DNA of 64,000 nucleotides from Dehalococcoidia bacterium (GCA_965224345.1 CBDCYU010000003.1:905748-969747); one strand, 5' to 3'; shown: positions 39,990-64,000, counted from the stretch's first letter. Numbers and translations: made by a program. Notes: generated by a model from the sequence alone, not told the origin.

Positions 39990-40101
39990 CATCAGACACG
40001 GTTATGCATAACATCCGGGCCACATTAGTGCCCAAGTGGGTTCACTCAAGAGATACACCGGTTTGGAAGGCGGACATATTAACTTATCAAGGAGGAGTGT
40101 C

Positions 40102-42384: not shown

Positions 42385-42407
42385 CTTCAACTTCAGGACG
42401 GCCAACG

Positions 42408-42453
42408 GAGGTGGGCGCCCCGGCTTGGGCTGGGGCGCCCACCTCTGTTTATT
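42408..42453 (+). terminator. Rho-independent terminator/attenuator after the SBP gene
   Basis: GAGGTGGGCGCCCC-ggcttgggct-GGGGCGCCCACCTC followed by TGTTTATT. Confidence 0.55.
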
Positions 42454-42479
42454 GACCACTGAGACCCGGTTATGGAGCT

Positions 42480-44216: not shown

Positions 44217-44299
44217 CTGGAAGGGGACGCAAACCTATAATTCGACTTTGAGAGGCCCGCTAGAGACGGGGGGCACGCCTACGCAAGGGAGCCTCGGGG

Positions 44300-45289: not shown

Positions 45290-45294
45290 GCTCC

Positions 45295-47458: not shown

Positions 47459-47461
47459 GCG

Positions 47462-48514
47462 ATGGCTGAGGCGACACAGACCAACGGCAACAGGCTTCTG
47501 GAGGTCAACAACCTCCAGAAGCTGTTCCCCATCACCCAGGGCTTCCTGAGGCGGGTCGTCGGCCACGTTCGGGCCGTCGACGACGTCAGCTTCTACATCA
47601 ACGAGGGAGAGACGCTGGGGCTGGTGGGAGAGAGCGGCTGCGGCAAGACGACCACGTCCCGCTGCATCCTGCGCGCCCTAGACCCGACCTCCGGCCAGAT
47701 CCTCTACAGGACCGGCGGCGGCGAGGAGGTCGACATCGCGACGCTGCCCGTGAGCCCTATGAGGGAGCTGCGCCGCGAGATCCAGATGATCTTCCAAGAC
47801 CCCTTTTCGTCCCTCAACCCCCGCATGACGCTCTTGGACGTTGTGGGTGAGCCGCTCCTCAACTTCGGGATGAGGTCGAGGTCCGAGAGAGAGGACCGCG
47901 TCTCCGAGCTCCTGCGGCTGGTAGGGCTGCGCCCGGAGTTCCTAAGACGCTTTCCCCACGCCTTCAGCGGAGGACAGAGGCAGCGCATCGGCATCGCCAG
48001 GGCACTGGCCCTCAACCCGCGCCTGATCGTGGCCGACGAGCCCGTCTCGGCACTGGATGTCTCAGTGCAGGCCCAGGTGTTGAACCTGATGGCAGACCTG
48101 CAGAGCCAGTTTGGCCTGGCCTACCTCTTCGTGGCCCACGACCTGAGTGTGGTCAAGCAGTTCAGCGACCGCGTGGCGGTGATGTACGTCGGCAAGATCG
48201 CCGAGATGGCCTCGACGGAGGAGCTGTTCGCCAATCCCAAGCACCCGTACACGGAGGCGCTGCTGTCCTCGGTCCCCAGGCCGGACCCGCGAAGTCGCAC
48301 CACGCGGATACCGCTGGAGGGGGAGGTGGCGAACCCCGCAGACCCTCCCACCGGATGCTACTTCCACCCCCGATGCGCCTATGCGACTGAGGTTTGCCGG
48401 ACCCAGACCCCCGCCCTGCAAGAGGTCGCCCCCGGCCACTTCGCAAGCTGCCACCACGCCGAGAGCCTGGAGCTCGCCGGCGTCCGCGCCAGGACCGGCC
48501 CCTCGGCCAGCTAG
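47462..48514 (+). CDS. Peptide-type ABC transporter ATP-binding protein (DppF/OppF-like)
   Basis: [45 protein letters not shown]. Confidence 0.9.
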
Positions 48515-48566
48515 GGTCTTTTCCCCCATGGGAGAGGGGACTGATTGTGATGGGGGAGGGGCCTTC

Positions 48567-49967
48567 TCACCCCCGATCCCTCAGGTCGTACATTGCGATG
48601 ATGTAGGGGTGATCAGGGTCGTAATGGGTCAGCGTGTCGGGGTTGTCGACCCTGCCGACAGGCCGGACGTCCTCCCCGGCAGCCCCGGTGGCGCTGTCAC
48701 CCAGGTCCCTCCTGCACGAGTCCAGCTTGGCCATGAGCGCCTTCACGATATCCGGATGGTCAGCATGGACGTCATTGGTCTCGGCGATGTCCGATCGGAG
48801 GTCGTAGAGCTGGCAGGTCTCGCCGGCACCCTCGACATGGTCGGGCAGCCGCACGTGCAGCTTCCATCTGCCGCTGCGCACGGCCCTGAGCTCGTCGGCC
48901 CGGTAGTAGAAGAAGGCGTCGTGGGGCGACTCCGCTCCTTCTTCCGCGAGCATAAGCGGGGCGATGTCCCGGCCGTCGACGATCCGGTCACCGGGGACTG
49001 ACGCGCCGCCCAGCGCCGCCAGGGTAGGGTACAGGTCCATGGCTGTGGCGACCTCGCCGCAGACGGAGCCGGCGGGTATCCTGCCAGGCCAGCGCATGAT
49101 GCACGGCAGCCTCATGCCGCCCTCCCACGTAGTCCCCTTCGTGCCGCGGAGGGGAGCGTTGCTCCCCCCATCGCTGGCCGCCCGCGATCCGTTGTCGCTG
49201 GTGAAGATCACCAGCGTCTTCTCGTCCAGCCCCAGCCTCTGCAGCTCGTGGAGCAGGGCCTCGGCTGCCCAGTCTACGCATGCCACCGCACCGCCGTAGG
49301 CGCCGTTCTTCGACTCCCGCAGGAACCGTTCCTGCACGTAGATGGGCAGATGGACGTACATGTGCGCGAAGTACAGGAAGAAGGGCCGGGACCGGTTGTC
49401 TCGAATGAAACGGACCCCCTCCTCGACGTACCGCTCGGTGAGAGCGGTCTGGTCCGGCTGCTGCTGGACCACGTCCTCGTCTCGCAGCAGCGGCAGCGGC
49501 GGATAGGTGTCCCCCGGGCGCTGCCTTCCCATGTCGTTGCTGTAGGGGATGCCGTAGTAGCTGTCGAATCCGTGGCGCGTCGGAAGGAACTCCGACTGGT
49601 CGCCGCAATGCCACTTGCCGATGATCTTGGTTGTGTACCCAGCCCCATTCAACAGACTGGCGACCGTCACCTCCTCCGGGTTCAGACCGTAGGGCTGCCC
49701 AGGGAACAGCACCACGCGCCCGTTAAAGGAGCCGAACCCTATCCGGCGCGGATAGCACCCCGTCATCATCGCGCCGCGGGAGGGCGAGCAGACCGGAGCG
49801 GCCATATAGAAGTCGGTGAACCTGACGCCCTCCTGGGCCATCTTATCCAGGGCCGGCGTCCTGTTGACCTCGGAGCCGTAGCAGCCAAGATCGCCGTAAC
49901 CCAGGTCGTCGCAGTTAATCAGGACTATGTTCGGCCTGTCACTCATGACACTCCTCTCTAGAGACAC
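48567..49967 (-). CDS. Cys-type sulfatase (arylsulfatase A family), no signal peptide
   Basis: NIVLINCDDLGYGDLG, formylglycine motif CSPSRGAMMTG, GKWHCGD. Confidence 0.9.
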   Translation of the reverse strand: MSLERSVMSDRPNIVLINCDDLGYGDLGCYGSEVNRTPALDKMAQEGVRFTDFYMAAPVCSPSRGAMMTGCYPRRIGFGSFNGRVVLFPGQPYGLNPEEVTVASLLNGAGYTTKIIGKWHCGDQSEFLPTRHGFDSYYGIPYSNDMGRQRPGDTYPPLPLLRDEDVVQQQPDQTALTERYVEEGVRFIRDNRSRPFFLYFAHMYVHLPIYVQERFLRESKNGAYGGAVACVDWAAEALLHELQRLGLDEKTLVIFTSDNGSRAASDGGSNAPLRGTKGTTWEGGMRLPCIMRWPGRIPAGSVCGEVATAMDLYPTLAALGGASVPGDRIVDGRDIAPLMLAEEGAESPHDAFFYYRADELRAVRSGRWKLHVRLPDHVEGAGETCQLYDLRSDIAETNDVHADHPDIVKALMAKLDSCRRDLGDSATGAAGEDVRPVGRVDNPDTLTHYDPDHPYIIAMYDLRDRG

Positions 49968-50111
49968 AAAGCTATCGTTGGCTGACCGTACCGGGCTACC
50001 TCACTGTCGGCGGGAGAGGGCGACCCACTGTAGGAGCGAAGCTACGTGACGCCCTTCGCGTACGCGATATCCGGAAGCGCCTTGGGGTGGCTGTGAGGAT
50101 CACGCGCCAGG

Positions 50112-51482
50112 CTACCAGACCCGTTTCGTCATGCCCGAGGCGGCGCCGTCCTCCACCAGGCCGTCTCTGCCAAGCTTCACGTACCGGGCGAACCAGTCGT
50201 CCATCATGGCCTTCATCTCGCCCGTCCGCCCCTGCTGGACCGGCTCCCCCACGAGATTGTTGAGCTCGCCTGGGTCCTTGACCAGGTGGTAGAGCTCGTC
50301 GGGGCCGTGAGCGTGCCGGTAGACGTACTTCCAATCCGCGGTGCGTACCATGCGGACAGGCCCGTACTCGTCGTAGATCACGACGTGGTCTCGTCCCGCG
50401 CCCGGTCTTCCCTCCAAGGTGGGGAGGAAGCTGGAGCCCGGCAGATTCCGGAGCCGGGGGACCGGGAGCTCTAGGTATTCAAGCAGGGTGGGCATGAAGT
50501 CGTAAGCGCTGACCATCGCGCTCTCGACGCGCCCTTGGGGTATGCGGCCGGGGTGGCTGAAGATGGCCGGCACCTTGATGGAGTTCTCGTACATGTTCCT
50601 GGGCGCCGTCCCGTTGCCCTTTCCCCAAAAGCCGTGATGTCCGCACGAGAAGCCGTTGTCGCTCAGGAAGACGACCAGCGTCCTGTCGCGAAGCCCAAGC
50701 TGCTCCAGCCTGTCCAACAGCCGACCGACACTCTGGTCCATGGCGGTGACCGAGGCAAAGTAGCCTTTCAGCGCCTCTCTGTTGCCCATGTTCTGGCGGG
50801 TCAGAGCGCCCGCCCACGGGTGTCGAGGCTCCTGTGGGCAGGAGTCGAAGGCGCAGTCGTCGTACGAGTTGACGATCTCCTGGGGATGCTCGCCGATCCA
50901 CGGGCTGTGGGGAGCCGTGTAGTGGACGCCCAGGTAGAAGGGGTGGCCAGCCCCGGCGTACCGCTCCATCAGCCTGAGAGCCTCGTCCGTTATGACGTCC
51001 GTCAGGTAGCCTGGCTCGTTGCCCAGCTGGCCGTTGCGCACCATCGGCGCGTTGTTGTAGGGACCGCCGCCCCGCCGGTGTACGAACCAGTCGGTGAAGC
51101 CGTGCTGCACTATCTGGCTGTCGCCCAGGTGCCATTTCCCCGAGATGCCGCAGGTCCAGCCATGGCGGGCCATGACGTCGGTGTAGGCGACCTCACCCTC
51201 CAGGTACGGTACCGCCCCGGGACCGGCGTTGCCGCCCCTGATCCAGTCGTGCACGCCGTGCTGGGAGGGAATCCTTCCCGTCAGCAGCGTCGCCCTGCTG
51301 GGCGAGCACACGGGGGTGGCGACGAAGAAACTCTCGAAGCGCGTCCCGGTCCCAGCCAACCTATCGAGGTTGGGGGTGCGGATCTCATCGTTGCCGTAGC
51401 AGCCGGCCGCCCATACCGCCTGGTCGTCGGTCAGGATGAACAGCACGTTGGTCGGACGCTTGTTCGGTCCGTCGTCGGCCAT
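50112..51482 (-). CDS. Cys-type sulfatase, no signal peptide
   Basis: NVLFILTDDQ, CSPSRATLLTG, GKWHLGD. Confidence 0.9.
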   Translation of the reverse strand: MADDGPNKRPTNVLFILTDDQAVWAAGCYGNDEIRTPNLDRLAGTGTRFESFFVATPVCSPSRATLLTGRIPSQHGVHDWIRGGNAGPGAVPYLEGEVAYTDVMARHGWTCGISGKWHLGDSQIVQHGFTDWFVHRRGGGPYNNAPMVRNGQLGNEPGYLTDVITDEALRLMERYAGAGHPFYLGVHYTAPHSPWIGEHPQEIVNSYDDCAFDSCPQEPRHPWAGALTRQNMGNREALKGYFASVTAMDQSVGRLLDRLEQLGLRDRTLVVFLSDNGFSCGHHGFWGKGNGTAPRNMYENSIKVPAIFSHPGRIPQGRVESAMVSAYDFMPTLLEYLELPVPRLRNLPGSSFLPTLEGRPGAGRDHVVIYDEYGPVRMVRTADWKYVYRHAHGPDELYHLVKDPGELNNLVGEPVQQGRTGEMKAMMDDWFARYVKLGRDGLVEDGAASGMTKRVW

Positions 51483-53595: not shown

Positions 53596-53700
53596 GCAGG
53601 ATGAAATGACGCTGCTAACGGGTCCACGGTTAGACAACGGTTCGAGTGAGTATTGACACTGGAGAATGAGTCGTGGACTGGGAGACACTAGCTCGCAAAG

Positions 53701-53744
53701 AAAGAGGGGAAGGACACCGGGACCTGGGGTCCTTCCCCTCTTTA
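53701..53744. terminator. Bidirectional-looking rho-independent terminator
   Basis: AAA-AGAGGGGAAGGAC (53703-53715), 13-nt loop, GTCCTTCCCCTCT (53729-53741)-TTT. Confidence 0.6.
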
Positions 53745-53818
53745 CGTCCGTGTGTAGGCTTTCTCGTCGCGCAGGATATGAACCTAGCCTTCATTGTGCT
53801 TGGTGGGGTCGATGAAGA

Positions 53819-53847
53819 TTGACGACCAAAACCCGCACTTCTATACT
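53819..53847 (+). promoter_or_regulatory. Promoter of the candidate defence operon
   Basis: TTGACG (53819-53824), 17-nt spacer, TATACT (53842-53847), about 45 nt upstream of the HTH gene. Confidence 0.5.
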
Positions 53848-53891
53848 TTGGTTGTAAGTGATAGGTTTTCTTAGTGAGGAGTTAGTGGGAT

Positions 53892-54122
53892 ATGGCGTCT
53901 GAAGAAGGTTGGGTCGGTATCGCTGACGTGGCTGCCCACCTGAGCGTAGCCAAAGACTCCATCTACTGTTGGGTCGACACCAAAGCCTTCCCAGCGCACA
54001 GGGTTGGAAGGCTCCTGCGCTTCCGGCTTTCAGAAGTGGACGAATGGGTAAGAACAGGAGGCGGGAGGGAATCCGGAAACCGAAAAGCTGGTAGGACTTC
54101 AACAGCGGATGGGCAAGACTAA
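53892..54122 (+). CDS. Excisionase/MerR-type helix-turn-helix DNA-binding protein
   Basis: IADVAAHLSVAKDSIYCWVDTKAFPAHRVGRLLRFRLSEVDEWV fits the HTH_17 pattern. GAGGAG RBS. Confidence 0.8.
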   Translation: MASEEGWVGIADVAAHLSVAKDSIYCWVDTKAFPAHRVGRLLRFRLSEVDEWVRTGGGRESGNRKAGRTSTADGQD

Positions 54123-54136
54123 CGAGTAGAGCATTC

Positions 54137-57100
54137 ATGCCGCGTATCTTCGACAACCTGGCGCCTGGCGCCAGTCTCCTGCCCGCGTTGCAGGAGACCT
54201 TGGAACTATCGTCGCGAGCAGACTTCTGCGTCGGCTACTTCAACCTGCGCGGCTGGAGTGGTCTTGCGCCGCTCGTGGACAGCTGGCAGCCGGAGGACGG
54301 ACCGTGCCGCGTCCTTATCGGGATGCAGCGACTTCCGCACGACGACCTCCGGGAGACCCTCAGCCTCGTTGATAGGCCCTCGGGCATGGACAACCAGACG
54401 GCGCATCGCCTCAGAGTCCAGTTGGCCGAACAGCTGCGCCAGCAGCTCACCATCGGTGCTCCTTCCAACGCCGACGAGCGGACCTTACGGCAGTTGGCTG
54501 CACAGCTTCGAGCCAAGAAGGTCATCGTCAAGCTCTTCCTCCGTCACCCCTTGCACGCGAAGCTCTATCTGCTGTTTCGCAACGATCCCATCAACCCCAT
54601 CGTCGGCTACCTGGGTAGCAGCAACCTAACCTTTGCGGGCCTTGCGGGACAGGGCGAGTTGAACGTGGACGTGCTCGACCACGACTCCGCTCTCAAGCTC
54701 AAGGGTTGGTTTGAAGACAGATGGAACGACCGCTTCTGCGTCGACATCACCGACGAGCTGCTTCAGATCATCGAAGATAGCTGGGCGCGGGAAGCGCTGA
54801 TACCGCCGTACCACGTCTACCTGAAGATGGCCTATCACCTTTCCCATGAAGCCCGGGCCGGTCTCGCCGAGTTCAGGATTCCCAAGGTCTTTGGCGACCG
54901 GTTGTTCGACTTCCAGGCCGCCGCGGTCAAGATCGCGGCCCATCACCTGAACAAGCGCAATGGCGTGCTCATCGGCGACGTAGTAGGACTGGGCAAGACC
55001 CTGATGGCGACCGCCGTCGCTCGTATCTTTGAGGACGACTACGGGCTGGAGACGCTGATCATCTGTCCCAAGAACCTCGTTTCCATGTGGGAGGACTACG
55101 CTCACGAATACGGGTTGCGGGCCAGGGTGATTTCCATTAGTCAGGTAATAGGCCAGTTGCCAACCCTTCGGCGGCATCGCTTAGTCGTCATTGACGAGAG
55201 TCACAACCTCCGCAACCGCGAGGGCCGCCGCTACCGTGCCATCCAGGAGTACGTCCGCGAGAACGAGAGCAAGTGCATCCTCCTATCGGCAACGCCCTAC
55301 AACAAGACGTATCTGGACCTGTCCAACCAGCTGCGCATCTTCGTCGAGGATGACCAGGACCTTGGCATCCGCCCCGAACGACTCCTCCGACAGTTGGGCG
55401 AGATCGAGTTCAGCAGGCGCCACCAGGCTTCGCCGCGCACCCTGGCGGCCTTTGACTTCAGCGAGTACGCCGACGACTGGCGCGACCTGATGCGCCTCTA
55501 CCTAGTGCGCCGCACCCGCAGCTTCATCCAGGACAACTACGCGGAGACGGAACAGGAGACAGGCAGGAAGTTCCTCACCTACGAGGACGGGACCCTCTCC
55601 TTCTTCCCTACCCGCGTGCCAAAGACGGTCAAGTTCACCATCGACGACTCCAACCCCAACGACCAGTACGCCAAGCTGTACTCGCCCAAGGTGGTCGACA
55701 TAGTAAAGGACCTGTACCTGCCCAGGTACGGCCTCGGCAATTACCTACTGGATAAACCAGCGACTCCACCCACCAAGGAAGAGGAGCGACAAATCGACGA
55801 CCTGTCTAGGGCTGGCAAGCGGCTCATCGGATTCTGCCGCACGAACCTGTTCAAACGCCTGGAGAGCAGCGGCGCGGCGTTTCTGCAGTCCGTCGAGCGG
55901 CACGTACTCCGCAACTATGTCTTCCTCCATGCCATCAGGCACGACCTGCCTCTACCCCTTGGCACGCAGGACGCCGAGATGCTGGACTCCCGCTTCACCG
56001 ACGAGGATGCAGACCAGGCGAAGGGTGCTCTCTTCGACCCTGACGACGACGAGCAGGAGGAGGGCCTTGAAGAGACTGGCCGCGCTTGGACTGCCGCCGA
56101 CTTCGAGGCGCGGGCAGCCCAGATATACGCCGAGTACGAGGGCCGCTACAGGCGCCGCTTCAAGTGGCTCCGCGCTGACCTATTCGAGAGCTCCCTTGAG
56201 AGCGAGCTTCAGTCAGACGCCGATGCCCTCCAAGCCATCCTGACGGATTACGGGGCGTGGGACCCCGCCAAAGACGCCAAGCTCGACGCACTCCACTCAC
56301 TGCTGACGGAGACCTTCTCGGATCGGAAGGCGCTGGTGTTCTCCCAGTTCGCCGACACGGTTCACTACCTGGAATCGCAACTCAAGAAGAGAGGGGTTGC
56401 GGACATGGCCGGCGTCACCGGCAGCTCCGCCGACCCCACGCAGTTGGCATGGCGATTCAGCCCGGACAGCAACCAGCGGCCGGGCCAGGGTAAACCGGAG
56501 CGGGAGCTTCGAGTCCTGGTCTCCACCGATGTACTCAGCGAGGGCCAGAACCTCCAGGACTCTCACGTCGTCGTGAACTACGACCTGCCCTGGGCCATCA
56601 TCCGCCTCATCCAGCGTGCGGGCCGCGTCGACCGCATCGGACAGAAGGCGGAGGAGATCCTCTGTCACTCTTTCCTGCCCGCCGAGGGTGTTGAGCGCAT
56701 CATTGACCTGCGCGGGCGGGTCCGGGACCGGCTCAGGGAAAACGCTGAGGTGGTCGGCGCGGACGAGGCGTTCTTCGAAGACGAGGACGACAGTCAAACT
56801 ATCGTCGACCTGTACCACGAACGCGCCGGCATCTTGGACGGCGACCCGGAAGGCGACGTAGACCTTGCGTCCCACGCCTACCAGATTTGGAAGAACGCCA
56901 TCGGTGCGGACCCGTCGCTGGCGAAGGCCGTGGCCGACTTGCCGGACGTCGTCTTCTCCTCGCGGCAGCACATGCCCATCGCCCAACGGCCCGAAGGCGT
57001 CCTCGTGTTCATGCGCACCGCCGATGGCAACGACGCCCTGGCCTACGTGGACCGGGAAGGCCGGAGCATCACTGAGTCGCAGCATGAAATCCTTTCAGCC

Positions 57101-57544
57101 GCCGAGTGCAGGCCCGACACCCCTGCGCAGCCTCACCACGAGAGCCACCACCAGCTCGTCGTAGAGGGCGTCAGGCACGTCGTCAGGGAGGAGAAGCGGG
57201 TCGGCGGCCAGCTGGGGCGGCCCTCCGGCGCCCGCTTCCGCACCTACACGCGCCTCAAGGCCTACGCTGATGCCATCAGGGGCCAGCTGTTCGACGTGGA
57301 GGCGCTGCACAAAGCCATCGACGACATCTACCGCTATCCCCTGCGCCAGTCGGCGGTCGATACGCTGAACCGGCAGCTGCGCAGCGGCGTCTCCGACGAC
57401 CAGTTGGCCGAAATCGTCATGTCCCTGCGCGAGGAGGACAGGCTCTGCCTGACCGGTGACGATGCCGCCGAGTCTCAGGAGCCGCAGATCATCTGCTCCC
57501 TGGGCCTGTTCGAGGCCGACGCGCAGCATGATGACGCTAATTGA
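54137..57544 (+). CDS. PLD-like (single HKD) nuclease domain fused to an SNF2-family helicase
   Basis: N-terminal LHAKLYLL...GSSNLT (nt 54554-54625). Helicase motifs GDVVGLGKT, VVIDESHNLRN, LLSATPYNK, QRAGRVDRIGQ. Confidence 0.9.
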   Translation: MPRIFDNLAPGASLLPALQETLELSSRADFCVGYFNLRGWSGLAPLVDSWQPEDGPCRVLIGMQRLPHDDLRETLSLVDRPSGMDNQTAHRLRVQLAEQLRQQLTIGAPSNADERTLRQLAAQLRAKKVIVKLFLRHPLHAKLYLLFRNDPINPIVGYLGSSNLTFAGLAGQGELNVDVLDHDSALKLKGWFEDRWNDRFCVDITDELLQIIEDSWAREALIPPYHVYLKMAYHLSHEARAGLAEFRIPKVFGDRLFDFQAAAVKIAAHHLNKRNGVLIGDVVGLGKTLMATAVARIFEDDYGLETLIICPKNLVSMWEDYAHEYGLRARVISISQVIGQLPTLRRHRLVVIDESHNLRNREGRRYRAIQEYVRENESKCILLSATPYNKTYLDLSNQLRIFVEDDQDLGIRPERLLRQLGEIEFSRRHQASPRTLAAFDFSEYADDWRDLMRLYLVRRTRSFIQDNYAETEQETGRKFLTYEDGTLSFFPTRVPKTVKFTIDDSNPNDQYAKLYSPKVVDIVKDLYLPRYGLGNYLLDKPATPPTKEEERQIDDLSRAGKRLIGFCRTNLFKRLESSGAAFLQSVERHVLRNYVFLHAIRHDLPLPLGTQDAEMLDSRFTDEDADQAKGALFDPDDDEQEEGLEETGRAWTAADFEARAAQIYAEYEGRYRRRFKWLRADLFESSLESELQSDADALQAILTDYGAWDPAKDAKLDALHSLLTETFSDRKALVFSQFADTVHYLESQLKKRGVADMAGVTGSSADPTQLAWRFSPDSNQRPGQGKPERELRVLVSTDVLSEGQNLQDSHVVVNYDLPWAIIRLIQRAGRVDRIGQKAEEILCHSFLPAEGVERIIDLRGRVRDRLRENAEVVGADEAFFEDEDDSQTIVDLYHERAGILDGDPEGDVDLASHAYQIWKNAIGADPSLAKAVADLPDVVFSSRQHMPIAQRPEGVLVFMRTADGNDALAYVDREGRSITESQHEILSAAECRPDTPAQPHHESHHQLVVEGVRHVVREEKRVGGQLGRPSGARFRTYTRLKAYADAIRGQLFDVEALHKAIDDIYRYPLRQSAVDTLNRQLRSGVSDDQLAEIVMSLREEDRLCLTGDDAAESQEPQIICSLGLFEADAQHDDAN

Positions 57545-57587
57545 CTCGTTCGCCTTACCCGATTATCATAAACGTAAGGAGGAAGCT

Positions 57588-57839
57588 ATGATTGTCAAGA
57601 TTACCTCGAAGCGTCAGGTCACCTTCCCCAAACACGTTCTCGACGAGCTGGGCGTGGGGCCCGGCGACCGACTGGAGCTGCTGGAAGGACCCGACGGCTT
57701 CACCCTGCGCCCCAAGCGGATCGACTACTCCAAGCTGGGCACACTTCGCGACAAGATACGGCCCGGAACCCCACCCTTCGACATCCGCAAGTTCAGGGAC
57801 GAACGGGAGCAGGGGCATGGCCCAGCGCTACGGCGTTGA
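57588..57839 (+). CDS. vapB: AbrB/MazE/SpoVT-family antitoxin
   Basis: MIVKITSKRQVTFPKHVLDELGVGPGDRLEL. AAGGAGG RBS. Overlaps the PIN gene by 23 nt. Confidence 0.8.
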   Translation: MIVKITSKRQVTFPKHVLDELGVGPGDRLELLEGPDGFTLRPKRIDYSKLGTLRDKIRPGTPPFDIRKFRDEREQGHGPALRR

Positions 57840-58215
57840 CACCTCGGTCCTCGTCAGGCTGGTCGCACGCGAGCCGCAAGCAGACTTCGAGCGCTGTGTG
57901 CGCCGTCTTGGCGCCTTGGTGGAGGAGCAGAGATGCGAGATATTGGCGTCCAACCAGGCGATAGGCGAGGCCTACGCCGCATTGATTCACCACTACGACA
58001 TGGCTAGCGCCGACGCCCGCGCAGGTCTCCTGGATGCACTGACCAGCGGCCTCGTAGCGCCCCTGAACGGCCAGGCCGTCATAGAGGCCCTCTCTGCCTC
58101 CGGCGGCCCCGGACTCTTCGACCGCCTCATCGCCGACGACTACGCCCGCGCCGAGCTGGAGACGCTGACCCTGGACCAGCAGATGGCCTCCCTGGCCGAC
58201 GCGCGGCTTCTTTAG
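57817..58215 (+). CDS. vapC: PIN-domain toxin
   Basis: YGVDTSVLVRL (first Asp), AIGEAY (Glu), FDRLIADDYARAELETLTLDQQ (D.LIA..A....L.T.D pattern). Confidence 0.8.
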   Translation: MAQRYGVDTSVLVRLVAREPQADFERCVRRLGALVEEQRCEILASNQAIGEAYAALIHHYDMASADARAGLLDALTSGLVAPLNGQAVIEALSASGGPGLFDRLIADDYARAELETLTLDQQMASLADARLL

Positions 58216-58224
58216 GAGACGGAT

Positions 58225-61200
58225 ATGCCGGTTTCCATTGAAGAGCTACGGCCCCACCTACAGGCCTTTGACTTTCCGCGTCTCTTCATCGAGGGGCTGG
58301 GCTGGGACCACTTCCAAGTCGAGCCGCTAGTCCTGCCGGTTGACGGCCACGAGTACGCGCTCAAGCCCGTGGCGGAAAAGGCACAGTTCGCAGTCTTTGA
58401 GTGTGCCCCTGGACCCGACGGTGCTATACCGGGGTACCCGGTGCGGCGCAAGATCGAGACGCAGGTCACAAAGCGGACCTTCGAGCACCTCATCATCTTT
58501 GTCGATTCCGAGCGCAAGCAGCAGGTTTGGCAATGGGTTAAGCGACAGGCTGGCAAACCCACCGCCTGCCGGGAGCACCGGTTCGACTCGGGCCAGACAG
58601 GGCAGCCCCTGTTGCAGCGCCTCGATAGCTTCATCTTCACCCTGGAGGACGAGGCCAAGGGCATCGGCATTGGCGACGTCACAACCGGTGTAGGCAAGGC
58701 TTTCGACGTTGAGAGGGTCACCAAGCGCTTCTACGACCGGTTCCGCACCGAGCTCACCGCCTTCGGGAAGTTCATCGAGGGCATAACCGCCCAGGGCGAC
58801 CGAGACTGGTACGCCTCCCTGATGCTCAATCGCATGATGTTCGTTTACTTCGTCCAGAAGCAGGGTTTCCTGGATGGCAACACCGACTACCTTCGCACCA
58901 AGCTGCGCCAGGTCCAGACCGGGTATGGCGACGGTCGCTTCCAACAGTTTTATCGCGAGTTTCTTCTGAAGCTGTTCCACGATGGTCTGGGGCGGCCGGT
59001 GGACCAGCGCAACGAGGAACTAAAGGACCTCCTGGGCGAGGTTCCCTTCCTCAACGGCGGCCTCTTCGACGTTCACGACCTGGAGCGGGACAACCCCGAC
59101 ATCCAGATCCCCGACGACGCCTTCCGGCGCGTCTTCGACTTCTTCGACGACTACCGCTGGCACCTGGACGAGCGCCCTCACGGGGAGGACAACGAGATCA
59201 ACCCCGATGTCCTCGGCTACATCTTCGAGAAGTACGTCAACCAGAAGCAGATGGGCGCCTACTACACCAAGGAGGACATCACCGGCTACATCTCCCGCAA
59301 CACGGTCATCCCCTTCCTGTTCGACGCCGCAAGGAAGGAGTGCCGGGTGGCCTTCGAGCCGAACGGCGGCGTCTGGCGGCTGCTGCGGGACGACCCCGAC
59401 CGCTACATCTACCCGGCCGTCGGCCACGGCGTAACCTGGAACGCCCGCGACGCCCATAACCCAACTCCCCTCGACTCGCCCTTCGATTTGCCCGACGACA
59501 TAGCCGCCGGTATCGACGACGTGTCCCAGCGCGGCGGCTGGAACAGCCCCGCGCCCGACGACTGCGCCCTGCCAACCGAGACCTGGCGAGAGGTGGTCGC
59601 TCGTCGCTCACGCTACGCCGAGGTCCGGGGCCAGCTCGAGGCGGGCGAGGTCCGGGAAATCAACGACCTCGTCACGCTGAACCTGGACGTCGAGCGGTTC
59701 GCCCAGGACGTCATCGCCCAGAGCGAAGGGCCGGAGCTCCTGCGCGCCTTCTGGCACGCCATGCGCGACGTATCCGTCCTCGACCCCACCTGCGGCTCCG
59801 GCGCCTTCCTGTTCGCCGCCCTCAACATCCTCGAACCCCTCTACACCGCCTGCCTGGAGGGGATGCGCGGCTTCCTGGACGACGCCGCAAGGTCCGAGCG
59901 CAAGCGCGGCCCCGGCTATCTCAACGACTTCAAGCGTGTCCTGGCCCAGGTCGAAGAGCATCACAGCGAGCGCTACTTCATCCTCAAGTCTATCGTCCTC
60001 AACAACCTCTACGGCGTCGACATCATGGAAGAGGCCGTAGAGATCTGCAAGCTGCGCCTCTTCCTGAAGCTCGTCGCCCAGCTCGAGACCTACGACCAGA
60101 TCGAGCCGCTGCCGGACATCGACTTCAACATCCGCGCCGGCAACACGCTGGTGGGCTTCACCTCCCTGGACGCCGTGCGCCAGGCCATGACCATCACGCC
60201 CGACGGCCAATACCGTGCCGTAGACGCCGAACAGCAGGCGGCGCTCGCCCGCATAGAGGAGAAGGCAGAAGAGGCAGACCGGCAGGCAGGCCGATTCAGA
60301 GACCAACAGACCACGCACGGCGGCGAGATAACCCCTCAGCACAAGGCCGAACTGCGCGGGCGGCTGCGCGCCCTGGCGGACGAGCTGGACCGCTACCTGG
60401 CCAAGGAGTCCGGCAAGCACAACGTCAAGCCCAAGGACCCCAAGAACCCCACGCCCCAAGAAGCCAAGACGAAGTGCGACAGGGACTCCTCCACCCACGA
60501 TGCCTATCCGTGCTGGCGCGACAGCCACCGGCCCTTCCACTGGTTCGCCGAGTTCTACGGCATCATGAGCAAGGGCGGCTTTGACGTGGTGATCGGTAAC
60601 CCGCCGTACGTATCCAGGCGAAAGGTAGCCGAGTCGTATACGCCGAAGGGATTTCGGACTGCGGGGTGTCCAGACATATACGCCACCGTCGTAGAGCGAA
60701 GCGTCAACGTTTGCCGGTCCGGCGGACGGACAAGCATGATCGTGCCCCTGAGCCTTGCGTTTAGTTCAAGATTCACCAGCCTGCGCACCTACCTACATGG
60801 GGAGTGCAATTCGCTTTGGTTCTCATCCTTTGGGCGTATACCATCCGCACTCTTCAGTTTCGATACTAGGGTACGCAACACGATCTATCTGCCTCGTAAG
60901 TCTTCAAGGTCGCCGAAGCGCAGCTTCACGACACGGCTTCACAGATGGTTCGACTCTCAGCGTCCGACCCTGTTCGACGGCTTGTCGTACTCACCGTTCT
61001 CCCCGTCAGCGTTTGGTGGGCTGATTCCCAAGCTGGGTAGTGCCCATCTCCTACAGGGATTCGAGTCACTGCTGGAGGGTAGCGGCTACCGACTCGAGAA
61101 CGAGCTCGCCCCGTCGCGGCAGGGGCACCACCTTCACTTCAAGCAGACGGCCTACAACTGGCTGACGTTCTGTGTCGACCAACCGCCAGTGTATGGACCT

Positions 61201-61629
61201 GCCAATAGTCCCATCAGCCAGACTCAGTACGCGACCATACGTTTCCGACAGGAAGAGGACAGAGATCTGTCCTTGCTGATAGCGAACGGTCTGCTGATGT
61301 TCACCTGGTGGGTCGCCATCGGAGACGACTTTCACCTAACGCAGAGCAACTTTGCGACTGCTCCCTTTGGGATGGGCCAACTGAACGAAGACCAGCGCCG
61401 ACACCTCTCAGCCCTTCTGCCTGAATTGGAACAGGCAATGAATAAGAACCTGGTGTTCAAGCTGAACGCGGGCAAGAACATCGGCAACTACAACCTCGCC
61501 AGATGCCGTCGCGTCACGGACAAGGTAGACAAAGCGTGGCTGGAAGCCGTCGGCCTAAGCGACCTGTGGGAAGACATTGAGTTGGAGCACGCGTTGGTCG
61601 TGCGGACATCGTTCGAGGACGGGGAGTAG
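58225..61629 (+). CDS. Large Eco57I/PglX-like N6-adenine DNA methyltransferase with uncharacterised N-terminal domain and C-terminal TRD-like region
   Basis: Motif I VLDPTCGSGAFLFAAL (about nt 59779-59815). PFHWFAEF...GGFDVVIGNPPYV (NPPY at 60598-60609). 1134 aa. AGGAGA RBS. Confidence 0.9.
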   Translation: MPVSIEELRPHLQAFDFPRLFIEGLGWDHFQVEPLVLPVDGHEYALKPVAEKAQFAVFECAPGPDGAIPGYPVRRKIETQVTKRTFEHLIIFVDSERKQQVWQWVKRQAGKPTACREHRFDSGQTGQPLLQRLDSFIFTLEDEAKGIGIGDVTTGVGKAFDVERVTKRFYDRFRTELTAFGKFIEGITAQGDRDWYASLMLNRMMFVYFVQKQGFLDGNTDYLRTKLRQVQTGYGDGRFQQFYREFLLKLFHDGLGRPVDQRNEELKDLLGEVPFLNGGLFDVHDLERDNPDIQIPDDAFRRVFDFFDDYRWHLDERPHGEDNEINPDVLGYIFEKYVNQKQMGAYYTKEDITGYISRNTVIPFLFDAARKECRVAFEPNGGVWRLLRDDPDRYIYPAVGHGVTWNARDAHNPTPLDSPFDLPDDIAAGIDDVSQRGGWNSPAPDDCALPTETWREVVARRSRYAEVRGQLEAGEVREINDLVTLNLDVERFAQDVIAQSEGPELLRAFWHAMRDVSVLDPTCGSGAFLFAALNILEPLYTACLEGMRGFLDDAARSERKRGPGYLNDFKRVLAQVEEHHSERYFILKSIVLNNLYGVDIMEEAVEICKLRLFLKLVAQLETYDQIEPLPDIDFNIRAGNTLVGFTSLDAVRQAMTITPDGQYRAVDAEQQAALARIEEKAEEADRQAGRFRDQQTTHGGEITPQHKAELRGRLRALADELDRYLAKESGKHNVKPKDPKNPTPQEAKTKCDRDSSTHDAYPCWRDSHRPFHWFAEFYGIMSKGGFDVVIGNPPYVSRRKVAESYTPKGFRTAGCPDIYATVVERSVNVCRSGGRTSMIVPLSLAFSSRFTSLRTYLHGECNSLWFSSFGRIPSALFSFDTRVRNTIYLPRKSSRSPKRSFTTRLHRWFDSQRPTLFDGLSYSPFSPSAFGGLIPKLGSAHLLQGFESLLEGSGYRLENELAPSRQGHHLHFKQTAYNWLTFCVDQPPVYGPANSPISQTQYATIRFRQEEDRDLSLLIANGLLMFTWWVAIGDDFHLTQSNFATAPFGMGQLNEDQRRHLSALLPELEQAMNKNLVFKLNAGKNIGNYNLARCRRVTDKVDKAWLEAVGLSDLWEDIELEHALVVRTSFEDGE

Positions 61630-61642
61630 CGACACTTCTCAA

Positions 61643-62176
61643 ATGCTGAACCTGTTCGCCAAAACCCTGCTAGCATCAACCTCCTTAACTCCCGTACTCG
61701 GTGCTATGGCTGTAACTGATATTGAGCATTGCGAGCCATGGACTCGTTGGATTTGGTGGATTCTCGGAGCTATGCTCCTAGTGGCTATCTGCTGGGCACT
61801 ACTAGAATACCAAGCTCGAAATGGCCAGAAGGAATTGATTACCATCAAGGAGTTTGAACGAAGAGACCAAGAGGTGCTTGTGTTCCTCTTCATCTACCTG
61901 CTGCCGTTCCTTAGGTCGACCGACCCTATGTTCTCCCCACAATTGCTGACGGGTGGCTACATATTGGCCATCATTGTTCTTGCTATCGCGGATGCCGGTG
62001 CCTTCCACTTCAACCCGGTCATGCGTTTGCTCAGGTTTCGCTTTTATTCCATTAAAACGCAAGATGGTCTGTCCAGCCTACTTATCAGCAAGAGGGAACT
62101 GCGTCGCCTATGCGAGATTGAAACTGTAAGTCTTAGTCGGAACATCTACTTGTACACAGGAGCCTCTTATGCTTGA
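61643..62176 (+). CDS. Four-TM membrane protein of unknown function
   Basis: ATG 13 nt after the MTase stop. Helices WIWWILGAMLLVAICWALL, VLVFLFIYLLPFL and GGYILAIIVLAIADAGAF, plus a weaker N-terminal one. About 50-aa soluble tail. About 50% GC. Confidence 0.7.
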   Translation: MLNLFAKTLLASTSLTPVLGAMAVTDIEHCEPWTRWIWWILGAMLLVAICWALLEYQARNGQKELITIKEFERRDQEVLVFLFIYLLPFLRSTDPMFSPQLLTGGYILAIIVLAIADAGAFHFNPVMRLLRFRFYSIKTQDGLSSLLISKRELRRLCEIETVSLSRNIYLYTGASYA

Positions 62177-62510
62177 GAACTTCCATCTAGCGGCTATCCT
62201 CAGACAAGGAACACACACGTACTTGCGGCAGATACGGCTCCACCAAAATCTGCAAGGTACTCTTGCCGAGAGTTGGGAAGGACAATTTCTGCAATTCACT
62301 ACTGGCATTGAAGAGGTCGATTTTGATCCGGGCTACCGGCCTGAGCGACACGAGCGTTTCCGATTGAGTGACTACATGCCTCCCGAATGGCTAGCAAAGG
62401 AAACTAGCCAGACCATTCAACATCTCGGTCTACTAGACAGTGAGACACGACTGCTCGATTCCATCACTGGCATCGTGGGAATGGCGAGAGATGGCAAGGG
62501 GAGGAATTGA
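62169..62510 (+). CDS. Hypothetical protein (possible N-terminal part of a split gene)
   Basis: ATG overlaps the upstream stop by 8 nt. 113 aa. Its stop overlaps the next start (TGATG). Confidence 0.55.
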   Translation: MLENFHLAAILRQGTHTYLRQIRLHQNLQGTLAESWEGQFLQFTTGIEEVDFDPGYRPERHERFRLSDYMPPEWLAKETSQTIQHLGLLDSETRLLDSITGIVGMARDGKGRN

Positions 62511-62974
62511 TGTTATTTCAGAATTTCACGCATTCTCGAGTGATCCGGCCGGGCCGGTTCCTGCTCCTTGGCGGCGGCGATACCTACGTTAGTCCCGAAC
62601 GACCAGGATTGACTCTTGATGCAAAATTGAGTGCTGTTTATCAGCCCGCCCTTAGCAAATTGCTGTTCGTCAACCTTCGAACCGTCAACACTTTCCTGCC
62701 GTTACTTGACCTTTACAAGGAAGCAACGGAGGAGGATATCCGAGAAGTATTAAGTCACGACAGACTAGCAGCTGAGGACCTAGATGCTTCGGCCACCGAC
62801 ACCAATCAATGGTTCGCCAAACGAATAACTATGCTCAGAGATTCGAGAGTCCTAGACCAATTTTCTGCCGATCAAATCAAAGCGCGTTCCGTCGGGCATA
62901 GCGTATCCATTGCAATCCTAGAGGACAAGATTGATTCCCTCGTAACAAGTCATGGGCGAGGGTATTGGAAGTGA
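62507..62974 (+). CDS. Hypothetical protein (possible C-terminal part of a split gene)
   Basis: ATG at 62510 overlaps the upstream TGA. 154-155 aa. About 43-48% GC. Confidence 0.55.
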   Translation: MMLFQNFTHSRVIRPGRFLLLGGGDTYVSPERPGLTLDAKLSAVYQPALSKLLFVNLRTVNTFLPLLDLYKEATEEDIREVLSHDRLAAEDLDASATDTNQWFAKRITMLRDSRVLDQFSADQIKARSVGHSVSIAILEDKIDSLVTSHGRGYWK

Positions 62975-63028
62975 GGGATAATAGGAGCGGGGAAAGTGGA
63001 GGAGTGAACGCTCAGGAGTAGGTGGTCG

Positions 63029-64000
63029 ATGTTTCAAGCACGGGAACCGCAGGAGAGCCTGTGGCAGTCGGAGTTTCTGATCACGCCGAGGAAGGCGAAG
63101 CTGATGCGGAGGAGCTGGGCGGAGGTGTTCCGGAACGAGGCTCTGGTTCTGATAGAGGAGGAGCGGTTCGCTCCGCTGTACAGCCCGGACATGGGCAGGC
63201 CCAATCGCGCCGTGCAGACGGTGCTGGGAGTGCTGGTGCTCAAGGAGATGTTCGATCTGACGGACATGGAGGCGTTGGAAGAGTTGGAGTTCAATCTGCT
63301 GTGGCACCACGCGCTGCGGCTGGAGATGGAGGAGGCGCATCTTGCCCAGAAGACGCTGCACAACTTCCGTGTGCGGTTGATGGAGCACGACGGGGGGCGA
63401 TTGGCCTTCTGCGAGACAACGGACCGGATGATAGAGGCCCTGGGACTGCGAACAGGCAAGCAGCGCCTGGACTCGACGCACGTCATGAGCAATATCGCGG
63501 TGTTGACGCGGTTGGGTCTGTTCTGCGAGACGGTCCGAGTGTTCCTGTTAGCGGTGAGCCGTGAGCACCCTGGTCTGGGTGAAGGGATTGGGGATGGTCT
63601 GGCCCAGCGGTACCTCAAGGAGACCGGCGAAGCATCGGGGTACGAGGACGCACGTTCAGGTGAGGGGCGTCGCCGGCTGTCAGTGTGTGCGCGAGACGTG
63701 TACCGGCTGGTGGATAGGTTCCGTGGGACGGCGGTGGCAAAGATGGAGGAGTACGGGCTGTTGGAGAGGCTATTGGGGGAGCAGTGCCACGTGGGCCGTC
63801 ACAGGGACGGTCGTCCCGGAGCCGATGACGACGATGCGGCAGAGGGTAAGGTGCCGATCGCGCTGAAGGAGGCGAAGGAGGTGCGGTCGTACTCTATGCA
63901 GACGCCCCACGACCCGGAGGTGACCTACAGCGGACACAAGGGGAAGGGGTACGAGGTGCAGGTGTCTGAGACGTGCGAAGAGGGGAACGCCGTGCAGATG
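63029..64000 (+). CDS. DDE transposase, IS5/IS1182-superfamily with DUF772-type N-terminal domain (partial, runs off window end)
   Basis: Hand translation from ATG 63029 stays open to nt 64000. YSPDMGRPNRAVQTVLGVLVLKEMFDLTDMEALEELEFNLLWHHAL, KQRLDSTHVMSNIA, DPEVTYSGHKGKGYEVQV. Confidence 0.8.
   Translation, partial: MFQAREPQESLWQSEFLITPRKAKLMRRSWAEVFRNEALVLIEEERFAPLYSPDMGRPNRAVQTVLGVLVLKEMFDLTDMEALEELEFNLLWHHALRLEMEEAHLAQKTLHNFRVRLMEHDGGRLAFCETTDRMIEALGLRTGKQRLDSTHVMSNIAVLTRLGLFCETVRVFLLAVSREHPGLGEGIGDGLAQRYLKETGEASGYEDARSGEGRRRLSVCARDVYRLVDRFRGTAVAKMEEYGLLERLLGEQCHVGRHRDGRPGADDDDAAEGKVPIALKEAKEVRSYSMQTPHDPEVTYSGHKGKGYEVQVSETCEEGNAVQM

What the first reader, a model, noticed from the sequence alone, without database searches (positions are those of the whole stretch)
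61643..62974. Operon-coupled 4-TM protein plus two overlapping small ORFs: possible Kiwa-like or novel membrane-linked module
The 177-aa 4-TM protein starts 13 nt after the MTase stop. It is followed by a 113-aa ORF with an 8-nt overlap and then a 154-aa ORF whose ATG overlaps the previous TGA (TGATG). Read together, the two soluble ORFs look like one roughly 270-aa protein split by a frame change near 62505. The relevant segments are ...EVDFDPGYRPERHERFRLSDYMPPEW...ITGIVGMARDGKGRN and LFQNFTHSRVIRPGRFLLL...LDAKLSAVYQPALSKLLFVNLRTVNTFLPLLDLYKEATEEDIREVL. The arrangement is a small multi-TM protein followed by a roughly 300-aa soluble protein, and the sequence has the flavour of DUF4868. This reminds me of Kiwa (KwaA + KwaB), but that is recollection, not a search result. 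If it is not Kiwa, this is an unassigned membrane-associated partner of the MTase/helicase system. The last ORF ends 55 nt before a transposase gene and may be 3'-truncated.
Basis: inference. Interest (0 to 1): 0.65.

Follow-up and report, generated by a model that had tools for sequence, protein, structure and literature searches.

The report
Kiwa defence operon with broken kwaB
The three ORFs are one copy of the known two-gene Kiwa anti-phage system (membrane protein KwaA plus DNA-binding KwaB), but kwaB is split by a one-base deletion and its conserved end is cut off by an insertion sequence, so this is an ordinary and probably dead defence module.

Summary
ORF1 (61643-62176) is an intact KwaA. 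It matches the PADLOC KwaA model over its full length (E 1.3e-36), and its AlphaFold model matches only the solved KwaA structures (9mrx, 9mrg, 9mrr; probability 1.00). ORF2 and ORF3 are two pieces of one kwaB gene. More than 500 homologs are single proteins of about 293 aa, and the window lacks exactly one base at the G-run 62498-62501. Adding one G restores an ungapped alignment. KwaB homology stops at 62932 (residue 254 of 293). This is exactly where the conserved terminus of an IS1182/IS5-like element begins (TGATTCCCTCGTAA), so the last 13 codons of ORF3 are IS sequence. The lost 39 residues carry the motif most conserved across KwaB clades. The helicase-MTase-Kiwa arrangement occurs only in close relatives. 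None of 30 more distant Kiwa loci has the MTase or helicase nearby, and MTase homologs in Synechocystis and Pelobacter are followed by other genes. Kiwa is therefore a neighbouring cassette, not a subunit of the MTase/helicase system. This is a known system in a degraded copy, and interest is low.

The parts
61643..62176 (+). kwaA, intact, 177 aa: four TM helices plus cytoplasmic beta strands
   Evidence: PADLOC KwaA PDLC00221 E 1.3e-36 over profile positions 1-168 of 173. 83-84% identity to 177-aa homologs that start at the same MLNLFAK. The AlphaFold model's top 7 PDB hits are all KwaA (9mrx_A E 1.3e-6, probability 1.00, TM about 0.6) and the next hit has E 0.5.
62169..62510 (+). kwaB 5' fragment: native codons 1-111, then 2 out-of-frame codons and TGA
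   Evidence: PADLOC KwaB profile positions 4-108 of 289. Aligns to residues 1-111 of intact homologs of about 293 aa. The 8-nt overlap with kwaA (ATGCTTGA) is conserved in 26 of 33 Kiwa loci.
62498..62501 (+). G4 run: site of the 1-nt deletion that shifts the kwaB frame by -1
   Evidence: DNA alignment with 7 homologous kwaB genes shows the window is exactly 1 nt short in this segment. Reading 62169-62501 and then restarting at 62501 (one extra G) gives ...ARDGKGEELMLFQNF..., colinear with ...ARDYQGNELVLFQNF....
62501..62932 (+). kwaB middle part (residues about 112-254) in the shifted frame; the annotated ORF3 begins at ATG 62510
   Evidence: PADLOC KwaB profile positions 112-245 of 292, E 4.3e-24. 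tblastn of five intact homologs ends at 62932 in every case, at homolog residue 254 of 293. GGAGG at 62500-62504 lies 5 nt before ATG 62510.
62932..64000 (+). Left end of an IS1182/IS5-like insertion sequence. Terminal TGATTCCCTCGTAACA is at 62932-62947. 62933-62974 supplies the foreign tail DSLVTSHGRGYWK* of ORF3. The transposase ORF runs from 63029 off the end of the window.
   Evidence: Transposase: Pfam DUF772 8.2e-9; NCBIfam IS1182 1.5e-13 and IS5 1.9e-10, both below the curated cut-offs. Six metagenomic relatives (52-62% aa identity) with unrelated upstream flanks share the same terminal sequence about 95 nt before their ATG. GC rises from 0.49 to 0.62 here.
58225..61629 (+). Context, not part of Kiwa: Eco57I/type IIG-like N6-adenine DNA methyltransferase, 1134 aa
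   Evidence: PADLOC REase_MTase_IIG PDLC03628 E 1.6e-269 and Pfam Eco57I 1.5e-25. Homologs in Synechocystis pSYSX and Pelobacter pPRO1 have no Kiwa downstream.
54137..57544 (+). Context: PLD(HKD)+SNF2 helicase, 1135 aa. It is followed by a MazE/AbrB-like antitoxin gene (57588-57839) and a likely VapC gene (57817-58215).
   Evidence: PADLOC 'HKD+Snf2' 2.8e-48; Pfam Helicase_C, SNF2-rel_dom, PLDc_2. MazE_antitoxin 9.3e-11. The VapC assignment rests only on synteny with pSYSX.

Best explanation
The region is a Kiwa anti-phage operon, kwaA followed by kwaB with an 8-nt overlap. It belongs to a divergent, mostly environmental clade of Kiwa. In an intact system, as shown for E. coli Kiwa (PMC11785009), KwaA tetramers in the membrane hold KwaB dimers. 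Membrane disturbance by phage attachment or DNA entry activates the complex. KwaB then binds the incoming DNA through its DUF4868 part, which stalls replication and late transcription. Both genes are needed for defence.

In this genome kwaA is intact but kwaB carries two lesions. The first is a 1-nt deletion in a G-run at codon about 111. The second is an IS1182/IS5-like element inserted after codon 254, which removes or displaces the last 39 codons. Those codons encode the family's most conserved motif. The copy is therefore most likely a recently inactivated Kiwa.

The cassette sits 13 nt behind a helicase-VapBC-MTase restriction-like operon. It is probably co-transcribed with that operon in this lineage, as a defence-island neighbour and not as a subunit.

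Shown here: identity of both genes, both lesions, the IS boundary, and the lineage-restricted linkage. Inferred: loss of function, co-transcription, and transfer of the E. coli mechanism to this clade.
For: Identity:
- KwaA matches the PADLOC model at 1.3e-36 over its full length.
- The KwaA model matches only solved KwaA structures, at probability 1.00.
- Both KwaB fragments hit the same PADLOC KwaB models at consecutive profile positions, 4-108 and 112-245.
- The intact homolog P0001 hits PDLC00222 at 1.2e-55 over positions 3-291 of 292.
- Pfam PF16162 (KwaB) hits 25 of 69 clade members.
- A profile-profile comparison with the characterised KwaB clade gives E 3.7e-5, probability 71%, 268 colinear columns. 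That clade's Emticicia member matches PDB 9mrx_K at 4.6e-30.

Frameshift:
- The listed homologs are 290-311 aa single proteins.
- The window has a 1-nt deficit against 7 genes.
- The one-G repair gives an ungapped alignment that keeps 31 of 31 invariant and 58 of 61 near-invariant columns.

Truncation:
- Homology ends at 62932 for all five closest homologs.
- The IS terminus, conserved in six unrelated contexts, starts at 62932/62933.
- The lost tail holds 11 of 42 invariant columns.
- The tail aligns with the equally conserved LLNDDYL...YDS.AKD block of the characterised clade.

Essentiality: deleting either gene abolishes defence (PMC11785009, section read).

Linkage:
- HEL-MT-KwaA-KwaB synteny occurs only in L001, L005 and L006, with an MTase remnant in L003/L004.
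- None of 30 GTDB loci has the MTase nearby, and only L012 has a weak helicase-domain match about 8 kb away.
- pSYSX and pPRO1 carry other genes after the MTase.
Against: - The frameshift lies in a short homopolymer and could be an assembly error, and no reads are available. Many related contigs are low-coverage long-read assemblies with obvious frameshifts (L006).
- The part of kwaB beyond the IS cannot be seen because the window ends at 64000. I therefore cannot say whether this is a simple insertion or a deletion.
- The AlphaFold model of an intact clade member gave no Foldseek match to solved KwaB, and the clade profile finds no PDB KwaB by sequence. The link to characterised KwaB is remote.
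- NCBIfam's KwaA equivalog model scores 57 bits, below its cut-off of 100.
- No member of this clade was found with tested activity.
Confidence: 0.87

Rival explanations
1. The frameshift is a sequencing or assembly artefact at a homopolymer, and only the IS insertion is a real lesion. kwaB would then be a single ORF of 254 native codons plus 13 IS-derived codons.
For: The missing base lies in or beside a GGGG run. Related public contigs show many likely error frameshifts (L006 MTase is in 8 pieces), as do several long-read MAG loci (L027, L034).
Against: The neighbouring 3.4-kb helicase and 3.4-kb MTase ORFs are uninterrupted and colinear with homologs. About 15 kb upstream gives full-length domain matches. 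The local error rate therefore looks low, and a 4-base run is a weak error hotspot. This rival does not change the verdict, because the IS truncation remains.
Confidence: 0.25
2. The split is functional. The two kwaB pieces are translated separately, with re-initiation at ATG 62510 overlapping the TGA, and they reassemble. This would resemble the naturally split KwaB seen in some lineages.
For: 70 of 9,797 Kiwa loci have KwaB as two genes, and the predicted assemblies resemble the single protein (PMC11785009). GGAGG lies 5 nt upstream of ATG 62510 and the stop and start overlap, which would favour coupling. Almost no residues are lost at the junction.
Against: The paper places the natural splits at the boundary between the Rossmann-like and DUF4868 domains, near residue 185 of 315. 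This break is at residue about 111 of 293, between two beta strands of the N-terminal domain (model strands 106-114 and 120-125). It aligns to about residue 130 of the characterised clade. None of the listed homologs or close loci shares the split. The C-terminal signature motif is missing in any case.
Confidence: 0.04
3. KwaA, with or without KwaB, is a functional membrane-linked component of the helicase/MTase restriction-like system in this lineage. This would explain the 13-nt coupling and why kwaA stays intact.
For: There is a 13-nt gap and no promoter-like or terminator-like site between the MTase and kwaA. The same tight junction occurs in L001, L005 and L006. kwaA is intact while kwaB is broken.
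Against: None of 30 Kiwa loci from other phyla has the MTase within 10 kb, and only one has a weak helicase-domain match. L002, a close Kiwa relative, lacks the MTase. MTase-helicase cores in Synechocystis and Pelobacter carry unrelated small genes in that slot. The Kiwa cassette has a distinctly lower GC (0.49-0.52 against 0.60-0.68), like an inserted cassette. The syntenic loci are close relatives (helicase 86%, MTase 73% identity), so the synteny reflects shared ancestry.
Confidence: 0.04
4. The module is not Kiwa at all but an unrelated small membrane protein plus an unknown soluble protein.
For: The local Pfam scan gave no significant hit for any of the three ORFs. Foldseek of the KwaB-clade model found nothing.
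Against: PADLOC, Foldseek for KwaA, Pfam PF16162 on clade members, the NCBI name 'Kiwa anti-phage protein KwaB-like domain-containing protein' for a 56%-identical homolog, and hhalign all point to Kiwa.
Confidence: 0.01

Closest known systems
Kiwa defence system (KwaA/KwaB) of E. coli O55:H7 and ECOR49; structures 9mrg, 9mrr, 9mrx; PMC11785009
   Same: Two genes in the order kwaA then kwaB on one strand. KwaA is about 180 aa with four TM helices and cytoplasmic beta strands, and the structural match has probability 1.00. KwaB is about 290-320 aa with a colinear profile-profile match and a shared C-terminal signature block.
   Different: The sequences are very divergent. KwaA is about 15% identical to the solved protein. 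KwaB is detectable only profile to profile (E 3.7e-5), with no Foldseek match. The KwaB here is about 25 residues shorter. In this genome kwaB is frameshifted and IS-truncated, so the system is incomplete.
PADLOC Kiwa subfamily KwaA PDLC00221 with KwaB PDLC00222/PDLC00234 (environmental clade: Chloroflexota, Nitrospira, Gammaproteobacteria and other MAGs)
   Same: This is the clade the locus belongs to. It gives full-length HMM matches, 50-84% identity to hundreds of members, and the conserved 8-nt ATGCTTGA gene overlap.
   Different: Most of the members examined have an uninterrupted kwaB of about 293 codons. The window's copy is broken in two places.
Naturally split KwaB loci (70 of 9,797 Kiwa loci, PMC11785009)
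   Same: KwaB is encoded as two adjacent ORFs.
   Different: The natural splits separate the Rossmann-like domain from the DUF4868 domain and recur in lineages. Here the break is inside the N-terminal domain, is caused by a single-base deletion, and is shared by no relative.
Helicase(PLD+SNF2)-VapBC-MTase(Eco57I-like) cores, e.g. Synechocystis pSYSX SGL_RS01585-01600 and Pelobacter pPRO1 PPRO_RS18265-18260
   Same: This is the upstream neighbour of the finding. It has the same two large genes in the same order, and in pSYSX a VapC gene also lies between them.
   Different: Those loci carry DUF2513 or a small hypothetical gene after the MTase, not Kiwa. The Kiwa cassette is an addition in the window's lineage.

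Membership tests
Kiwa (KwaA/KwaB) | KwaA: small (about 180-200 aa) protein with four TM helices and a cytoplasmic beta-barrel formed by ICL1 and the C-terminus | tested here: met
   The model has helices 4-28, 33-60, 78-91 and 100-118, and strands 63-73, 133-139, 144-149, 158-165 and 168-171. Foldseek's top 7 hits are all KwaA at probability 1.00. Hydropathy shows four segments. Model confidence is moderate (pLDDT 69).
Kiwa (KwaA/KwaB) | KwaA sequence matches a KwaA family model | tested here: met
   PADLOC PDLC00221 E 1.3e-36 over the full length, plus 13 other KwaA models. Precomputed Pfam PF28043 (KwaA) is on all listed homologs.
Kiwa (KwaA/KwaB) | KwaA passes NCBIfam's equivalog cut-off (NF041622, 100 bits) | tested here: not met
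   57.2 bits, E 1.9e-15. The clade is too divergent for the strict equivalog model, which affects naming and not homology.
Kiwa (KwaA/KwaB) | KwaB: protein of about 290-320 aa belonging to the DUF4868/PF16162 family | tested here: met
   Window fragments hit PADLOC KwaB at 8.1e-9 and 4.3e-24, at consecutive profile positions. P0001 hits at 1.2e-55. PF16162 hits 25 of 69 clade members, best 5.9e-8. hhalign against the characterised clade gives E 3.7e-5 over 268 columns. The window fragments themselves got no local Pfam hit.
Kiwa (KwaA/KwaB) | KwaB fold matches the solved KwaB (9mrx_K) | tested here: inconclusive
   The AlphaFold model of P0001 (pLDDT 80.7, pTM 0.72) gave no PDB match at E <= 0.001, although the library holds 9mrx. 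The cause was not resolved.
Kiwa (KwaA/KwaB) | kwaA directly upstream of kwaB on the same strand as one operon | tested here: met
   There is an 8-nt overlap at 62169-62176. The same overlap occurs in 26 of 33 related loci.
Kiwa (KwaA/KwaB) | Both genes complete (needed for defence and for a 'complete system' call) | tested here: not met
   kwaB has a 1-nt deletion at 62498-62501 and loses residues 255-293 to an IS at 62932. Deleting either gene abolishes defence (PMC11785009).
Kiwa (KwaA/KwaB) | Protects against phage or plasmid entry | not testable with these tools
   This needs plaque or conjugation assays. No tested member of this clade was found.
Naturally split KwaB variant | Split at the boundary between the Rossmann-like and DUF4868 domains (about residue 185 of 315) | tested here: not met
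   The break is at residue about 111 of 293, between model strands 106-114 and 120-125. It aligns to about residue 130 of the characterised clade. The boundary is as given.
Naturally split KwaB variant | Split inherited within a lineage | tested here: not met
   All six closest loci and the listed homologs have a single ORF across this point.
Component of the helicase/MTase restriction-like system | Co-occurs with the MTase and helicase beyond close relatives | tested here: not met
   None of 30 GTDB Kiwa loci has the MTase within 10 kb, and only one has a weak helicase-domain match. L002 lacks it. pSYSX and pPRO1 MTase loci have no Kiwa.

The most novel reading that the evidence does not exclude
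In this lineage the Kiwa cassette has been wired into the helicase-VapBC-MTase operon. It would be co-transcribed from the operon's promoter across the 13-nt junction. The still-intact KwaA would act as a membrane sensor that serves the restriction-like system, or some other partner, after loss of KwaB. A related possibility is that the frameshifted kwaB is expressed as two coupled polypeptides that still work.
Probability: 0.05. Interest if true: 0.5.

Novelty: new member of a known kind. Interest (0 to 1): 0.14.

Why it matters
It matters little beyond correct annotation. The three 'hypothetical' ORFs should be labelled kwaA, kwaB pseudogene (frameshifted and IS-disrupted) and IS left end, and the source's gene calls corrected, including the 134-aa call for KwaA. 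The locus is one more example of defence systems decaying through IS insertion. A related contig has a different IS inside kwaA, which is consistent with the rapid turnover expected of defence islands. The clade is widespread in environmental and probably symbiont MAGs, and its KwaB is only remotely related to the characterised KwaB. An intact member such as P0001 with P0122 would be a better target than this copy for asking whether the E. coli mechanism generalises.

Tried and rejected
- Local Pfam on the three ORFs gave only sub-threshold noise (Bac_rhodopsin, DNA_binding_2). PADLOC was needed to identify them.
- I tried to fetch the source contig through the window's own protein, to see beyond the IS. 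It is not on record. The genome-contig scan did not contain the source genome either.
- I searched the window for the missing kwaB 3' end and for a second IS copy. Neither is present.
- An exact-match scan for the IS 5' region in metagenomes found nothing. The protein-guided scan then gave relatives that fixed the IS terminus.
- The IS is unrelated to the IS elements in the related loci L003 and L004.
- The clade KwaB profile against PDB sequences found no KwaB. Foldseek of the KwaB model found nothing. hhalign against a single Emticicia KwaB was too weak (E 0.19). tblastn of Emticicia KwaB against plasmids found only two Emticicia records. A profile built from 47 homologs finally gave E 3.7e-5.
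- Programmed -1 frameshifting at G_GGG before the AGG codon was considered and rejected. There is no canonical X_XXY_YYZ heptamer, no relative has the frameshift, and the downstream gene is truncated anyway.
- Treating the 199-aa TTG ORF (61577) as the true KwaA was rejected. Homologs start at the ATG at 61643.

Full report
**Observation**

- The MTase ORF ends at 61629.
- A 177-aa ORF runs from ATG 61643 to 62176, leaving a 13-nt gap after the MTase.
- A 113-aa ORF runs 62169-62510 and overlaps the first by 8 nt.
- A 154-aa ORF starts at ATG 62510, overlapping the TGA at 62508-62510, and ends at 62974.
- A transposase ORF starts at ATG 63029 and runs off the window.

GC falls to 0.48-0.52 across 61600-63000, against 0.60-0.68 on both sides.

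**What ORF1 is**

The local Pfam copy gave nothing significant. PADLOC matched ORF1 to KwaA over its whole length (PDLC00221, E 1.3e-36, profile positions 1-168 of 173) and to 13 further KwaA models.

The large protein database holds 278 homologs, all carrying precomputed Pfam PF28043 (KwaA). The closest are 177 aa and 83-84% identical, and they start at the same MLNLFAK. ATG 61643 is therefore the true start. Neither the 199-aa TTG ORF nor the 134-aa call on record for the source (P0129) is correct.

An AlphaFold model built on 70 homologs has moderate confidence (pLDDT 69). It shows four long helices and five strands contributed by the loop after TM2 and by the C-terminus. Its seven best PDB matches are all KwaA chains (9mrx, 9mrg, 9mrr; probability 1.00, TM about 0.6), and the next hit has E 0.5. 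Simple hydropathy gives the same four hydrophobic segments. NCBIfam's strict KwaA equivalog model scores only 57 bits against a cut-off of 100, so this is a divergent clade.

**What ORF2 and ORF3 are**

They hit the same PADLOC KwaB models at consecutive profile positions, 4-108 and 112-245 of about 290. A search with the concatenated sequence found 523 homologs. Apart from the window's own 154-aa fragment, the 120 listed are 290-311 aa, and the closest is 74% identical.

In the protein alignment, homology runs straight through the ORF2/ORF3 junction. A DNA alignment with seven homologous genes shows the window is exactly one base short in GAGAGATGG-CAAGGGGAGGAATTG. Reading 62169-62501 and then restarting at 62501, which is equivalent to one extra G in the run 62498-62501, gives ...ARDGKGEELMLFQNF.... 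This is colinear with ...ARDYQGNELVLFQNF.... The repaired protein keeps 31 of 31 invariant and 58 of 61 near-invariant columns of a 69-sequence alignment. The lesion is therefore recent, or it is an assembly artefact.

**The 3' end**

tblastn with five intact homologs stops at 62932 every time, at homolog residue 254 of 293. The missing 39 residues occur nowhere else in the window.

The downstream ORF is an IS1182/IS5-type transposase (Pfam DUF772 8.2e-9; NCBIfam IS1182 1.5e-13, below cut-off). Relatives of this transposase from metagenomes (52-62% identity) have unrelated upstream flanks. All share T-GATTCCCTCGTAAAA about 95 nt before their start codon. The window has TGATTCCCTCGTAACA at 62932-62947.

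The IS terminus therefore coincides, within one base, with the end of KwaB homology. The ORF3 tail DSLVTSHGRGYWK* is IS sequence. The lost segment contains 11 of the family's 42 invariant columns.

**Link to characterised Kiwa**

The KwaB of this clade is far from the solved E. coli protein.
- The clade profile finds no PDB sequence.
- A reasonably confident model of P0001 (pLDDT 80.7) has no Foldseek match. I could not explain this.
- Pfam PF16162 (KwaB) hits 25 of 69 members.
- NCBI names a 56%-identical homolog 'Kiwa anti-phage protein KwaB-like domain-containing protein'.

I built a profile of the characterised clade around an Emticicia KwaB, which itself matches 9mrx_K at 4.6e-30. It aligns with the clade profile over 268 colinear columns at E 3.7e-5 and probability 71%. 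The C-terminal blocks correspond (AKKLLQFLNEELFRGAITETLYETNSKR against SKKLFLKLLNDDYL.SELT.L.YDS.AKD). That block is the best-conserved part of both clades, and it is the part removed here.

**Mechanism**

This part is taken from the literature. The E. coli work (PMC11785009) reports the following.
- KwaA tetramers and KwaB dimers form a membrane supercomplex.
- The complex responds to phage-induced membrane disturbance.
- KwaB binds DNA and stalls replication and late transcription.
- Deleting either gene abolishes defence.
- 70 of 9,797 loci have a naturally split KwaB, divided at the boundary between the Rossmann-like and DUF4868 domains (about residue 185 of 315).

The break here is at residue about 111. 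It lies between two strands of the N-terminal domain (model strands 106-114 and 120-125) and corresponds to about residue 130 of the characterised clade. No relative shares it.

A GGAGG lies 5 nt before ATG 62510, and the stop and start codons overlap. The second fragment could therefore be translated. Without the C-terminal block, function is still unlikely.

**Relation to the MTase and helicase**

The helicase-(VapBC)-MTase-KwaA-KwaB order recurs in L001, L005 and L006, with an MTase remnant in L003/L004. These are close relatives (helicase 86%, MTase 73% identity). L002, an equally close Kiwa, lacks the MTase.

Among 30 Kiwa loci from GTDB representative genomes of many phyla (KwaB 38-62% identical), none has the MTase within 10 kb. 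Only L012 has a weak helicase-domain match, about 8 kb from its Kiwa genes.

Conversely, MTase homologs on Synechocystis pSYSX and Pelobacter pPRO1 keep the helicase. pSYSX also keeps a VapC gene between the two large genes. They carry DUF2513 or an 88-aa gene where Kiwa sits here.

The Kiwa cassette is lower in GC than its flanks in nearly all loci. No promoter-like or terminator-like site separates the MTase from kwaA, so read-through transcription is plausible. The evidence points to a cassette lodged in a variable slot of a defence island, not a subunit of the restriction-like system.

**Artefact or real**

The frameshift is in a short G-run, and I have no reads. Against an artefact, two adjacent 3.4-kb ORFs are intact and colinear with homologs, and about 15 kb upstream gives full-length domain matches. 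I put the chance of an artefact at about one in four. The IS junction is independent of this question.

**Verdict**

This is a known system, Kiwa, in a divergent environmental clade that existing HMMs already capture. The copy here is degraded. Interest is low.

Noticed in passing
window 54137-61629; L050 1870-9303; L051 2638-9234: The PLD+SNF2 helicase and the Eco57I-like MTase form a conserved pair across phyla (window lineage, Synechocystis pSYSX, Pelobacter pPRO1). In both the window and pSYSX a small ORF plus a VapC-type toxin gene sits between the two large genes. The gene just after the MTase varies between loci. PADLOC labels the pair only as 'HKD+Snf2' candidate and type IIG MTase.
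   Followed up: partly
L004 3083-4745 (compare L003 1820-2353): A related metagenome contig carries the same Kiwa locus as L003, but with a different IS5-type element (DUF772 + DDE_Tnp_1) inserted inside kwaA. This is a second, independent IS hit on this Kiwa clade.
   Followed up: partly
L025, L027, L028, L030, L034, L036: Several of the 30 GTDB Kiwa loci look disrupted. kwaB is frameshifted in L027 and L034. kwaA is broken or N-terminally missing in L025, L028 and L036. About 1.3 kb is inserted between kwaA and kwaB in L030. Many of these are long-read MAGs, so some may be errors.
   Followed up: no
33 Kiwa loci (L001-L036), window 61643-62932: The Kiwa cassette has lower GC than both flanks in almost every locus (for example 0.48 against 0.61/0.58 in L001). 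The kwaA/kwaB 8-nt overlap ATGCTTGA is conserved in 26 of 33 loci.
   Followed up: partly
L002 6827-7666; L003 5680-6522; L005 8441-9283; L006 9962-10807: SMODS-domain (CBASS-type cyclase) genes and DUF433/DUF5615 or PIN toxin-antitoxin pairs lie just downstream of Kiwa in the closest relatives. In the window that side is occupied by the IS, so the rest of the island is unseen.
   Followed up: no
window 53819-54122: An HTH_17/AlpA-like 76-aa ORF (53892-54122, Pfam 5.6e-12) sits directly before the helicase. A promoter-like site is at 53819-53847, and GC dips to 0.53 at 53600-54000. This may be the regulator and left edge of the island.
   Followed up: no
window 61643-62176 (P0129): The protein on record for the source contig's KwaA is only 134 aa, so its start was called too far downstream. 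Homologs support the 177-aa protein starting at 61643.
   Followed up: yes
model of P0001 (intact KwaB homolog): A fairly confident AlphaFold model (pLDDT 80.7) of this clade's KwaB has no Foldseek match to solved KwaB chains. The partner KwaA model does match 9mrx, and the two KwaB profiles align at E 3.7e-5. This is unexplained.
   Followed up: partly
window 36531-51482: The region upstream of the island is ordinary metabolism: two family-5 solute-binding proteins, DUF885, an Opp/Dpp-type ABC transporter and two sulfatases. All give full-length domain matches.
   Followed up: no
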